This document shows, piece after piece, positions 39,834-54,475 of a stretch of 56,491 nucleotides of DNA (positions within the stretch are counted from its first letter, which is position 1; each line of letters starts with the position of its first letter). The stretch is taken from positions 1 through 56,491 of the IMG/VR virus record IMGVR_UViG_3300048834_000448; one strand, given 5' to 3'. A program made the translations under genes and the position numbers. The notes below the pieces were generated by a model. It was not told where the DNA came from. It worked only from the letters and a program-made list of their open reading frames with translations, and did no database searches. Source of the stretch: a virus (Duplodnaviria; Caudoviricetes).

Positions 39834-40015
39834 GAGTGCGCCGAGTAGACAGGAAACTGTACGAGGTCAGCCAAGGGGACTCCCGGCATAAGCCCGGGGA
39901 CCGCATCACCGCCCCGCTCCTGTGCGCGTACTTGATGACGGGGAAGAAGATACGGATAGAGAAAGTTTCACCTTTAGACAAGTTGACCGGACCATCCGAC
40001 CGATCTAGACTCTGA
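39827..40015 (+). CDS. Hypothetical protein
   Basis: Overlapping start; 62 aa. Confidence 0.4.
   Translation: MLRVRRVDRKLYEVSQGDSRHKPGDRITAPLLCAYLMTGKKIRIEKVSPLDKLTGPSDRSRL
39983..40011 (+). promoter_or_regulatory. Sigma70 promoter
   Basis: TTGACC-N17-TAGACT. Confidence 0.65.
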
Positions 40016-40065
40016 CGCAAACGGGAATTTCCCCGAAGACCAACGACTCAACCAAGGAGCATACC

Positions 40066-40296
40066 ATGAGCGACAAGAACACCCCCGCCCGCATCGAGTA
40101 CCCGTCCGAAACTCCCGCCTACTACGGCATCCGTGAACGCTCCGGCGTCCGGGTCTCCCGCACCCTCTTCGGCCCCTTCGAGACCGCCGAGGCGGCGCAG
40201 GGGGCCATGAGCGACGGCATCCAGCCAGGGGACCGCCTCATCGTCCTGCTCGGGCAGGCGGAGAGCGACAAGACCCTGAGCGTCCAGTTCACCTGA
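40066..40296 (+). CDS. 76-aa hypothetical protein directly upstream of the hammerhead
   Basis: SD AAGGAG; strong codon bias; own promoter. Confidence 0.75.
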   Translation: MSDKNTPARIEYPSETPAYYGIRERSGVRVSRTLFGPFETAEAAQGAMSDGIQPGDRLIVLLGQAESDKTLSVQFT

Positions 40297-40297
40297 T

Positions 40298-40351
40298 CCC
40301 GTTCTGACGAGCCCGCAAGGGCGAAACGCGGGGACAGCCCGCGTCAACGGG
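40298..40351 (+). ncRNA. Type I hammerhead ribozyme
   Basis: CCCGTT-CTGACGA-GCCC(GCAA)GGGC-GAAA-CGCGGG(GACAG)CCCGCG-TC-AACGGG; all three stems and the core are intact; GUC cleavage after 40345. Confidence 0.92.
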
Positions 40352-40529
40352 TACAGCGACCTGCCCTTGAAAACGGCAGGACTGCTAGCGTCGGCGGCAA
40401 CCGCCGCGGCCCGCTTCGATCGACCTTGCCGGGCCGATCGGGGTTTCCATCCGAAGTCAGGAGGTGCGAGATGTGACAGGCAATGACTGTGGACACACTC
40501 TGGCGGTGTGAGAGCATCGCCCGAGTTTT

Positions 40530-40784
40530 ATGAGGAACGAAACCGTAATCTCGTGGCAGCCTTTGGACGAACCAGCGTCCCCGACTCTTCCCACCTTCGT
40601 CAGTGAGGATGAGGGGAACCACTCGCAGGACCATCTCGTGCATCTCGTGGTCGAGCCGGTGGACTGGTTCGCGGTGCGAGGGCCAGGAGACGAAGGCAGC
40701 ATCCCGACACCATCGAGCGCGTTGCTCGGCATCGCGGGACTGCTGCTGCTGGCGATCAAACGACGGACAAGGAGCAAGCAATGA
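40530..40784 (+). CDS. Small protein ending in a PEP-CTERM-like sorting signal
   Basis: IPTPSSALLGIAGLLLLAIKRRTRSKQ: Pro motif, TM helix, basic tail. Confidence 0.6.
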   Translation: MRNETVISWQPLDEPASPTLPTFVSEDEGNHSQDHLVHLVVEPVDWFAVRGPGDEGSIPTPSSALLGIAGLLLLAIKRRTRSKQ

Positions 40785-42425: not shown

Positions 42426-42592
42426 ACCTTCGCTTGACATCTGATACACCGACGCTTAGACTCCCCTGCCCAGAGTGCAAAGGACTCGGGCGTGTGGAGG
42501 CCCCGGACACCTTCTGTGTCCGAGGACAGCCGCTTGGGATTCGAGGTGCGGTGATCCCGTGCCCTAAGTGCAAAGGAAAGAAGTATGTTTGA
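42422..42592 (+). CDS. 56-aa DnaJ-type CxxCxGxG zinc-finger protein (below the ORF track cut-off)
   Basis: CPECKGLG...CPKCKG; ATGA overlap. Confidence 0.6.
   Translation: MNLRLTSDTPTLRLPCPECKGLGRVEAPDTFCVRGQPLGIRGAVIPCPKCKGKKYV

Positions 42593-54401: not shown

Positions 54402-54475
<74 letters not shown>

What the first reader, a model, noticed from the sequence alone, without database searches (positions are those of the whole stretch)
39983..40351. Hammerhead ribozyme fused to the stop codon of a promoter-proximal small gene
Seen: promoter (39983-40011), strong SD, a 76-aa ORF, then 1 nt after its TGA a perfect type I hammerhead: stem I CCCGUU/AACGGG, CUGACGA, stem II GCCC-GCAA-GGGC, GAAA, stem III CGCGGG/CCCGCG and GUC cleavage after 40345. 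Stem I can extend through CUG(40293-95)/CAG, which overlaps the stop codon. Established: hammerheads occur in phage intergenic regions, but their roles are mostly unknown. Inference: self-cleavage separates a short monocistronic mRNA from the downstream operon, and terminating ribosomes could modulate folding, coupling translation to cleavage.
Basis: partly seen in the sequence, partly recalled or inferred. Interest (0 to 1): 0.85.

Follow-up and report, generated by a model that had tools for sequence, protein, structure and literature searches.

The report
Phage hammerhead ribozyme behind a stop codon
A complete phage genome carries a textbook self-cutting hammerhead RNA directly behind the stop codon of a small gene; in a sample of other phage sequences this placement was usual for ribozymes of this type, so the find is genuine but of a known kind.

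Summary
A complete type I hammerhead lies at 40298-40351 (+), with cleavage after C40345, one base after the TGA of a 76-aa ORF.

- **Not chance.** My descriptor finds this site alone in the window and none in 300 shuffles. A covariance model built from 36 other viral hammerheads, without the window, scores it 58.1 bits, E 3e-16, and it is the only hit. Rfam RF00163 reaches only 22.2 bits against a gathering score of 34.
- **The ORF is probably real.** GC3 is 0.92 and codon log-odds are clearly positive only in its frame. It has three distant relatives.
- **The window is a whole tailed-phage genome** with no close kin reachable.
- **Stop-codon abutment is a subfamily habit.** It occurs in 35 of 64 sampled viral type I hammerheads, against 4.8% of random positions and 0 of 19 viral type III.
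- **The CUG/CAG stem I extension is not conserved**.

Most likely the ribozyme cuts the small gene's message away from the downstream RNA, which is the hypothesis already in print. Ribosome gating is untested. Verdict: a new member of a known kind.

The parts
39983..40011 (+). sigma-70-like promoter candidate, TTGACC-17 nt-TAGACT
   Evidence: It matches 9 of 12 consensus positions. One twin lies at 42434-42462. Chance expectation is 0.33 per window, and 4 of 100 shuffles give >=2. The host is unknown, so this is suggestive only.
40054..40059 (+). Shine-Dalgarno AAGGAG, 6 nt before the ATG
   Evidence: read directly from the sequence.
40066..40296 (+). 76-aa ORF of unknown function; stop codon TGA at 40294-40296
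   Evidence: GC by codon position is 0.62/0.49/0.92. Codon log-odds are +0.65 in frame; the other five frames score +0.10 or below. Three relatives exist, at E 4e-13 to 6e-5. No PHROG, Pfam or NCBIfam family matches. The AF2 model has pLDDT 75.9 and no PDB match at E<=0.001.
40298..40351 (+). type I hammerhead ribozyme: stem I 40298-40303/40346-40351, core CUGACGA 40304-40310, stem II with GCAA loop 40311-40322, GAAA 40323-40326, stem III 40326-40344
40345..40346 (+). predicted scissile bond between C40345 (C17 of GUC) and A40346
   Evidence: Position follows from the hammerhead consensus alignment. Cleavage itself was not tested.
40297..40297 (+). pyrimidine directly 5' of stem I (family: U 41, C 16 of 57)
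   Evidence: A pyrimidine here is partly forced by how stem length was measured, given U at +1.
40352..40353 (+). U-A directly 3' of stem I; U is invariant in the family (57 of 57) and A follows in 38 of 57. Probably part of a stem I / loop II tertiary contact (inferred).
40352..40529 (+). 178-nt non-coding stretch that would be the 5'-hydroxyl leader of the downstream RNA
   Evidence: All six frames have negative codon log-odds. Its fold is no better than shuffles, z -1.31. It shares no similarity with the stretch after the L002 hammerhead.
40459..40476 (+). AGGAGG, 6 nt, then ATG-TGA (a start-stop) inside the leader
   Evidence: read from the sequence. Function unknown.
40502..40529 (+). weak terminator-like hairpin with a run of four T
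   Evidence: The region holds 8 such sites against 6.6 expected, so this is not significant.
40530..40784 (+). next ORF (84 aa), with no Shine-Dalgarno of its own; its end overlaps the start of the 213-aa ORF at 40781
   Evidence: Codon log-odds are 0.00 in frame and negative in all other frames.

Best explanation
The element at 40298-40351 is a genuine type I hammerhead self-cleaving ribozyme. It lies in the ORFan-rich, probably early, plus-strand region of a complete tailed-phage genome.

**Predicted reaction.** Once transcribed, the RNA folds into three helices around the intact 15-nt core and cuts itself between C40345 and A40346.

**Predicted products.**
- The upstream product is the message of the 76-aa gene. 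Its whole 49-nt 3' untranslated tail is the ribozyme body (stems II and III), ending in a 2',3'-cyclic phosphate.
- The downstream product starts with a 5'-hydroxyl on AACGGG. It carries a 178-nt leader followed by the next genes.

**Likely purpose.** Processing a longer phage transcript so that the small gene's message and the downstream RNA have separate fates, without stopping RNA polymerase.

**Basis of each step.**
- Shown here: the motif, its significance, its membership of a large viral type I subfamily, and the coding nature of the ORF.
- Inferred: cleavage in vivo, the chemistry of the ends (from the known chemistry of the class), and the purpose.
For: **Motif and significance**
- The core and helices are complete.
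- RF00163 aligns over its full length, 1-45 of 45.
- All three stems appear in the MFE and centroid folds of 81 nt, z -2.84, and in the centroid fold of 251 nt.
- The descriptor gives 1 hit in the window and 0 in 300 shuffles.
- Model R1, built without the window, gives 58.1 bits, E 3.3e-16, and no other hit.

**Subfamily membership**
- A core-plus-stem II pattern pulled at least 120 viral stretches. Of 106 distinct sites, one being the window's own copy, 70 are type I, 22 type III and 14 unclassed.
- Among 64 unique type I members, stem I is exactly 6 bp in 57, and U follows stem I in 57 of 57. The window shares both features.

**Placement in the family**
- The stop codon of a >=50-codon ORF lies within -6..+3 nt of stem I in 35 of 64, against 926 of 19,200 random positions.
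- By a longest-ORF test the figure is 31 of 64, with 9 more ending at -9 or -10, at or one base short of the UGA of the core.
- These cases are independent contexts: 57 flank clusters, and 34 upstream-protein clusters among the 35.
- A Shine-Dalgarno plus start follows within 60 nt in 38 of 60, against 12.7% at random.
- The cut lies a median 45 nt after the stop in type I (window: 49) and 37 nt in viral type III.
- Viral type III members are preceded by a strong hairpin: mean -15.2 against -6.0 kcal/mol, with 14 of 19 at z<-2. In both layouts, therefore, the upstream product would end in a stable structure.

**Literature**
- Phage hammerheads flank single genes, were shown to cleave in vitro and in E. 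coli, and were proposed to process long transcripts (PMC3088659, passages).
- Review PMC6155905 (passages) notes hammerheads flanking ORFs for small non-conserved proteins.
Against: - No RNA evidence: no sequencing run could be listed, so nothing shows transcription or cleavage.
- Rfam's curated gathering score is not met.
- In the 251-nt context the MFE fold, although it has frequency 0.0004, breaks stems I and II by pairing with coding sequence.
- Unlike most family members, the window has no Shine-Dalgarno plus start within 60 nt after the ribozyme. The next ORF of >=50 codons is 178 nt away, so the clean intercistronic picture fits less well here.
- Only one hammerhead is present in the genome, so it does not flank a gene on both sides.
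It was selected by likeness to the window's own core and stem II, and 100% pairing is by construction.
- Abutment did not replicate in the 13 type I sites from cellular genomes: 1 of 13.
- The stabilising effect of the two new ends rests on general knowledge of bacterial RNA decay, not on any call.
Confidence: 0.65

Rival explanations
1. Ribosome-gated ribozyme. A ribosome terminating at TGA 40294-96 covers stem I's 5' strand and part of the core. Translation of the small gene would therefore set when and how often the ribozyme can fold and cut, coupling processing to translation.
For: - The stop codon ends 1 nt before stem I.
- Stop codons sit at, or even inside, stem I in 35 of 64 viral type I members, against 0 of 19 viral type III members with the same core.
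- In 9 more members the dominant upstream ORF ends at -9 or -10, at or one base short of the core's own UGA.
- Competing pairing with the coding region appears in the 251-nt MFE fold.
- A footprint reaching about 12-15 nt past the A site is general knowledge, recalled rather than taken from a call.
Against: - The CUG/CAG extension over the stop codon is not conserved.
- Abutment is also what compaction predicts once the cut is kept 20-50 nt beyond the stop. Type III members reach similar stop-to-cut distances with a spacer instead.
- Cleavage is irreversible and a terminating ribosome is transient, so gating would only delay the cut (inference).
- No expression data exist.
Confidence: 0.15
2. 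The main job is to make the 5' end of the downstream RNA. The cut would release a defined 5'-hydroxyl leader or small RNA (40346 to about 40529) that controls, or is needed for, expression of the 84-aa and 213-aa ORFs. The fate of the upstream message would be secondary.
For: - A 178-nt non-coding stretch follows, unusually long for this family: 8 of 57 have >=121 nt.
- It holds a strong AGGAGG followed by an ATG-TGA start-stop, and a terminator-like hairpin just before ATG 40530.
- The only contig group sharing the exact 24-nt core (L002-L004) also has about 180 nt, plus a hairpin and T-run that I read by eye as a terminator, after its hammerhead.
- In RNA mycoviruses, ribozyme-made 5' ends were linked to translation initiation (PMC13725137, passages).
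Against: - The stretch is no more structured than shuffles, z -1.31.
- It has no Rfam match at gathering score; the sraL hit is 24.8 bits against 39, E 0.17.
- It has no similarity to the L002 stretch.
- The terminator-like site is within chance expectation.
Confidence: 0.15
3. A fortuitous or decayed hammerhead-like sequence with no activity or role.
For: It falls below Rfam's gathering score. It is the only copy in the genome. No orthologous locus is available to show conservation.
Against: The descriptor gives 0 hits in 300 shuffles. Model R1 gives E 3.3e-16. Every core position is intact, and the family-specific U after a 6-bp stem I is present.
Confidence: 0.03

Closest known systems
Type I hammerhead ribozymes of bacteriophage, prophage and bacterial DNA (Perreault et al. 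2011, PMC3088659; de la Pena review 2017, PMC6155905)
   Same: It has the same core, an open stem I and a long helix III. It lies between phage genes, next to a small non-conserved ORF. The proposed role, processing long phage transcripts into gene-length mRNAs, is the same.
   Different: There is a single copy rather than a flanking pair or triple. A 178-nt leader follows. The papers' passages that I read do not mention stop-codon abutment: 'stop codon' occurs 0 times in PMC3088659. Their supplements were not visible.
Rfam RF00163 Hammerhead_1
   Same: The alignment covers all 45 model positions with every core base matched.
   Different: The score is 22.2 bits against a gathering score of 34. 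In the alignment, the stems differ from the consensus, and 13 nt sit where the model has 2 in helix III.
Hammerheads filling the intergenic UTR of RNA mycoviruses (PMC13725137)
   Same: That is a type I hammerhead spanning a whole short intergenic region, with the cut just ahead of the next ORF. The paper states that chrysoviral type I hammerheads, with their longer helix III, resemble bacterial and phage type I hammerheads.
   Different: Those are RNA genomes in eukaryotic hosts, and the cut lies 7 nt before the start codon. Here the genome is DNA, the host is a prokaryote, and the next ORF is 178 nt away.
Hammerhead in the 3' UTR of mammalian Clec2 mRNAs (as described in review PMC6765202)
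   Same: It is a hammerhead placed in the 3' untranslated part of a protein-coding message.
   Different: It is discontinuous, split by several hundred nucleotides, and eukaryotic. That its first half starts right after the stop codon is my recollection, not taken from a call.
Synthetic ribozyme insulators placed between promoter or cistrons and a gene (RiboJ type; recalled, no call)
   Same: It works alike: self-cleavage strips off the upstream RNA and leaves a 5'-hydroxyl on the downstream message.
   Different: Those are engineered and use a different hammerhead with an added hairpin. This is an analogy of function only.

Membership tests
Hammerhead ribozyme, type I | Conserved core: C3 U4 G5 A6 N7 G8 A9, then G12 A13 A14 | tested here: met
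   CUGACGA at 40304-40310 and GAA at 40323-40325.
Hammerhead ribozyme, type I | Three helices at the junction, with G10.1-C11.1 and A15.1-U16.1 closing pairs | tested here: met
   G40311-C40322 and A40326-U40344 close the helices. Stems of 6, 4 and 7 bp are present and are kept in the MFE and centroid folds of 81 nt.
Hammerhead ribozyme, type I | Cleavage triplet NUH (H not G) 5' of the scissile bond | tested here: met
   G40343 U40344 C40345. C17 is the family norm, in 56 of 64.
Hammerhead ribozyme, type I | Topology: stems II and III closed by loops, stem I open | tested here: met
   Loops GCAA and GACAG close stems II and III; stem I is formed by the two ends.
Hammerhead ribozyme, type I | Score at or above Rfam's gathering threshold for RF00163 | tested here: not met
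   22.2 bits against 34, and no hit at gathering. A model made from viral type I members gives 58.1 bits. The failure concerns the curated model, not the defining core.
Hammerhead ribozyme, type I | Tertiary contact between stem I and loop II needed for fast cleavage at cellular Mg2+ | tested here: inconclusive
   The window has the family-invariant U after a 6-bp stem I and a GNRA loop on a 4-bp stem II. Whether these touch cannot be shown here. Loop II N against the nucleotide at -3 shows MI 0.366, reached by 0 of 500 shuffles, with relatedness uncontrolled.
Hammerhead ribozyme, type I | [quoted passage not shown] | not testable with these tools
   No run was listed for read mapping.
Viral stop-abutting type I subfamily (defined here) | Stem I of exactly 6 bp followed by U | tested here: met
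   Window: 6 bp, then U40352. Family: 57 of 64 have 6 bp, and 57 of 57 of those have U.
Viral stop-abutting type I subfamily (defined here) | Stop codon of the upstream gene within -6..+3 nt of stem I | tested here: met
   Window: +1. Family: 35 of 64.
Viral stop-abutting type I subfamily (defined here) | Shine-Dalgarno and start of the next gene within 60 nt after the ribozyme | tested here: not met
   Window: none within 60 nt; the next >=50-codon ORF lies at +178 nt. Family: 38 of 60.

The most novel reading that the evidence does not exclude
Viral type I hammerheads of this subfamily may form a stop-codon-anchored 3'-UTR module. The upstream gene's stop codon lies at, in, or just before stem I, and sometimes may be the core's own UGA. 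The terminating ribosome would then physically gate ribozyme folding, so phage mRNA processing would be timed by translation of the upstream cistron. The window's ribozyme would be one instance of this module. Here it acts on a promoter-proximal small gene and sets the ratio of monocistronic message to read-through RNA.
Probability: 0.15. Interest if true: 0.7.

Novelty: new member of a known kind. Interest (0 to 1): 0.35.

Why it matters
Reviews state that the roles of hammerheads and other small ribozymes in phages and bacteria are still largely unknown (PMC6765202 section 13; PMC6155905). This single instance adds little by itself.

The survey it prompted gives a concrete, testable regularity:
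- In viral contigs, type I hammerheads start at the upstream stop codon about half the time.
- Type III hammerheads with the same core keep a hairpin-filled spacer.
- Both layouts put the cut some 20-50 nt past the stop.

This pattern suggests the ribozymes build protected 3' ends for upstream messages. It also offers a simple system (small ORF, ribozyme, leader) in which to test whether translation and self-cleavage talk to each other.

Tried and rejected
**Searches for relatives of the phage**
- DNA of 39900-40600 against GenBank phages: no match.
- The 76-aa protein and the 883-aa replication protein by tblastn against phages: no match.
- The 76-aa protein, the 213-aa neighbour and the ligase against IMG/VR: none.
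- The alignment of the 76-aa family, or its members, against viral, metagenome and genome contigs: none. One search failed because the alignment was too weakly conserved.
- The three protein relatives exist only on Logan contigs of 2,993, 1,250 and 59,758 nt. Their DNA I could not fetch, because the tool that returns encoding contigs was closed. Co-occurrence of the ORF and the ribozyme therefore could not be tested.

**Sequencing runs**
- None was listed, and no RNA holder was listed.

**Downstream stretch**
- It is no more structured than shuffles, shares nothing with L002 beyond the ribozyme, and has only sub-threshold Rfam noise.
- Repeats around the locus showed nothing of note.

**Stem I extension**
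- It is not enriched for any of nine internal-loop geometries.

**Function of the 76-aa protein**
- No PHROG, Pfam or NCBIfam family matches.
- Atlas hits are 0.84 or below, to unnamed viral clusters.
- The AF2 model has no PDB match at E<=0.001.

**Replication of stop abutment in cellular genomes**
- The same pattern gave 130 sites, of which only 13 were type I, and 1 of those 13 abuts a stop.

**Literature on stop-codon abutment of phage hammerheads**
- Searches found no paper describing it.
- One search failed because the search term was too long.
- Supplements were closed, among them Dataset S1 and Figure S5 of PMC3088659. They may already hold this subfamily and its tertiary motif.

Full report
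**What the window is.** The window is a complete virus record of 56,491 bp with direct terminal repeats. It encodes a portal, a large terminase, tail proteins and a replication module: ligase, primase-like protein, exonucleases, helicase and DNA polymerase. It also carries one tRNA-Arg(TCT). It is therefore a tailed phage. Its host is unknown. No GenBank phage matches it, even with its 883-aa replication protein. The finding lies in a plus-strand block of mostly family-less ORFs (36.8-43 kb), upstream of the replication genes.

**Checking the observation.**
- TTGACC-17-TAGACT lies at 39983-40011.
- AAGGAG lies at 40054-40059, followed by ATG at 40066.
- TGA lies at 40294-40296, followed by one U.
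- The hammerhead then runs as follows: CCCGUU, CUGACGA, GCCC-GCAA-GGGC, GAAA, CGCGGG-GACAG-CCCGCG, UC, AACGGG.
- The closing pairs G10.1-C11.1 and A15.1-U16.1 and the GUC triplet are all present. Stem I is open, so the ribozyme is type I.

Rfam's gathering scan reports only the tRNA. A permissive scan of 251 nt aligns RF00163 over its full length at 22.2 bits, against a gathering score of 34 (E 0.0033). Every core base matches, but the stems differ and there is a 13-nt insertion in helix III. A permissive scan of the whole window finds no other ribozyme candidate. The 81-nt fold contains all three stems (z -2.84). In a 251-nt context the centroid keeps them, but the MFE, whose frequency is 0.0004, does not.

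**Is it chance?**
- A descriptor that I wrote finds this one site in the window and none in 300 shuffled windows, both strands.
- The exact 24-nt core plus stem II occurs in three near-identical IMG/VR contigs. There it is flanked by quite different stems I and III that again form a perfect type I hammerhead.
- Of 106 distinct sites, including the window's own copy, 70 satisfy the type I descriptor, 22 the type III descriptor and 14 neither.

I then built a model from other members. From the 64 unique type I sequences other than the window, I took the 42 with a 6-bp stem I and a length of at most 56 nt. I dropped six that MAFFT misaligned in helix III and built covariance model R1 from the remaining 36. 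R1 finds the window's element at 58.1 bits, E 3.3e-16, over its full length, and nothing else at E<=10. The 100% pairing counted on that alignment is by construction and is not evidence.

**What the family looks like** (the window is excluded from these counts).
- Stem I is exactly 6 bp in 57 of 64.
- The base after stem I is U in 57 of 57, followed by A in 38 of 57.
- C17 occurs in 56 of 64.
- Loop II is GGAA in 38, GUAA in 15, GAAA in 7, GCAA in 3 and GUGA in 1.

The window has the 6-bp stem, U40352-A40353 and a GCAA loop. It is not enriched in the family for any of nine internal-loop geometries; for the 2x2 loop it occurs in 1 of 57 against a control mean of 2.1. I treat it as chance.

**The small gene.** The 76-aa ORF has the codon signature of this genome. 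GC at the three codon positions is 0.62/0.49/0.92, and codon log-odds are +0.65 per codon in frame, with the other five frames at +0.10 or below. An exhaustive HMMER search of 1.84 billion representatives found three relatives of 78-83 aa, at 51, 44 and 36% identity. Each is known from a single Logan contig. No family, name or fold could be attached. The stretches on either side, 39834-40065 and 40352-40529, score negative in all six frames.

**Stop-codon abutment is a habit of the subfamily.**
- The stop codon of a >=50-codon ORF lies within -6..+3 nt of the first base of stem I in 35 of 64 viral type I members, against 926 of 19,200 random same-strand positions, or 4.8%. The commonest cases are the pyrimidine before stem I plus its first two bases forming the stop (14 members), and the last three bases of stem I's 5' strand forming it (7 members).
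- A stricter test takes the longest ORF covering the position 45 nt upstream. It gives 31 of 64, plus 9 whose ORF ends at -9 or -10, at or one base short of the UGA of the catalytic core. Ten calls are unusable because the ORF runs on through the ribozyme.
- The cases are independent: 57 flank clusters, and the 35 upstream products fall into 34 blastp clusters.
- Type III hammerheads caught by the same pattern almost never abut a stop: 0 of 19 viral and 1 of 103 from cellular genomes. Instead they keep 15-41 nt (viral, 13 of 19 usable). That spacer folds into a strong hairpin: mean -15.2 against -6.0 kcal/mol for a control stretch, with 14 of 19 at z<-2.
- As a result, the distance from stop to cut is similar in the two layouts: median 45 nt in type I, 37 nt in viral type III, and 49 nt in the window.
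- Downstream, a Shine-Dalgarno plus the start of a >=50-codon ORF follows within 60 nt in 38 of 60 type I members, against 12.7% at random.

The caveats are substantial. The sample is the first 120 stretches of a truncated scan. It was selected by likeness to the window's own core. ORFs were called mechanically. Among the 13 type I sites from cellular genomes, only 1 abuts a stop.

**How it most likely works.** The shown facts are the motif, its subfamily membership, the real upstream gene and the non-coding stretch behind it.

From the chemistry of the class I infer a cut between C40345 and A40346. The small gene's message would then end in the ribozyme body with a 2',3'-cyclic phosphate. The downstream RNA would begin with a 5'-hydroxyl.

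In both the type I and the type III layouts of the sample, the upstream product would end in a stable structure some 20-50 nt past the stop. From this I infer that the point is to give the upstream message a protected end of its own while RNA polymerase continues. This is the processing role proposed in 2011 for phage hammerheads (PMC3088659, passages) and repeated in reviews. That such ends slow decay in bacteria is general knowledge that I recall, not a result of any call.

The window departs from the family norm on the downstream side. The next ORF of >=50 codons starts 178 nt later and lacks its own Shine-Dalgarno. The leader holds AGGAGG-N6-ATG-TGA and a weak terminator-like hairpin. A role in shaping the downstream RNA's 5' end therefore remains a live rival.

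**The ribosome-coupling idea.** A ribosome at the stop would cover stem I's 5' strand (footprint size recalled), so transient occlusion is plausible. Nothing here shows that it matters. Compaction plus a minimum stop-to-cut distance explains the abutment equally well. Cleavage is also irreversible, so occlusion could only delay it. I keep the idea as the most novel reading, at about 15%.

**Comparison with what is known.** Type I, II and III hammerheads in bacteria and phages, their placement next to small non-conserved ORFs, and the open question of their function are all in print. A 2026 paper notes that type I hammerheads with a long helix III occur in bacteria and phages. It also describes hammerheads filling intergenic UTRs of RNA mycoviruses. 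Five literature searches found nothing on stop-codon abutment in phages. Supplements were closed and subscription journals are not covered, so I do not claim it is unpublished.

**Verdict.** The element is a new member of a known kind, with modest interest for the family regularity it points to.

Noticed in passing
IMG/VR loci L005-L121 (sample): Type I hammerheads with this core start at the upstream gene's stop codon in about half of cases, 35 of 64. Type III hammerheads with the same core keep a 15-41 nt hairpin-forming spacer. The cut falls a median 45 nt (type I) and 37 nt (viral type III) after the stop.
   Followed up: partly
Genome-contig loci L122-L241: In cellular genomes the same core pattern is mostly type III, 110 of 130 sites. 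By their record titles, very many sit in Patescibacteria (Saccharibacteria, Parcubacteria and the like) metagenome-assembled genomes. In viral contigs type I dominates, 70 of 106.
   Followed up: partly
L030:3682-4960: One viral contig has three type I hammerheads within 1.3 kb. Each overlaps the stop of a 110-157-codon ORF and is followed by a near-identical leader with a Shine-Dalgarno. This looks like a repeated intercistronic module.
   Followed up: no
window 40295 with 40316; family columns: The variable base of loop II covaries with the base 3 nt upstream of stem I (MI 0.366, reached by 0 of 500 shuffles). The pairing is U with A in 11 of 15, but G with C in only 10 of 34. In the window it is C40316 with G40295, the middle base of the stop codon. 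Relatedness was not controlled, so this is only a lead for a tertiary pair.
   Followed up: partly
window 40459-40533: A strong AGGAGG lies 6 nt before an ATG that is followed at once by TGA (a start-stop). A 17-codon ORF at 40483-40533 overlaps the ATG of the 84-aa ORF by ATGA. That 84-aa ORF has no Shine-Dalgarno of its own.
   Followed up: no
window 40530-40784: The 84-aa product ends in PTPSSALLGIAGLLLLAIKRRTRSKQ. This weakly resembles PEP-CTERM and MYXO-CTERM sorting tails, with all NCBIfam matches far below cut-off (E 0.018-0.19). I saw no N-terminal signal peptide by eye.
   Followed up: partly
window 42434-42462: This is the only other TTGAC-N18-TAGACT site in the genome (TTGACA-17-TAGACT), also on the plus strand, about 120 nt before the ATG at 42585.
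   Followed up: no
window 54402-54475: The phage carries a tRNA-Arg with anticodon TCT, between the helicase and the DNA polymerase genes.
   Followed up: no
L002:1500-1780 (and L003, L004): This is the only other phage group with the window's exact 24-nt core. It has the layout stop, hairpin with T-run, hammerhead, about 150 nt of non-coding sequence, second hairpin with T-run, next gene. That layout (the hairpins read by eye as terminators) could delimit a small RNA. It has no sequence likeness to the window's leader.
   Followed up: partly
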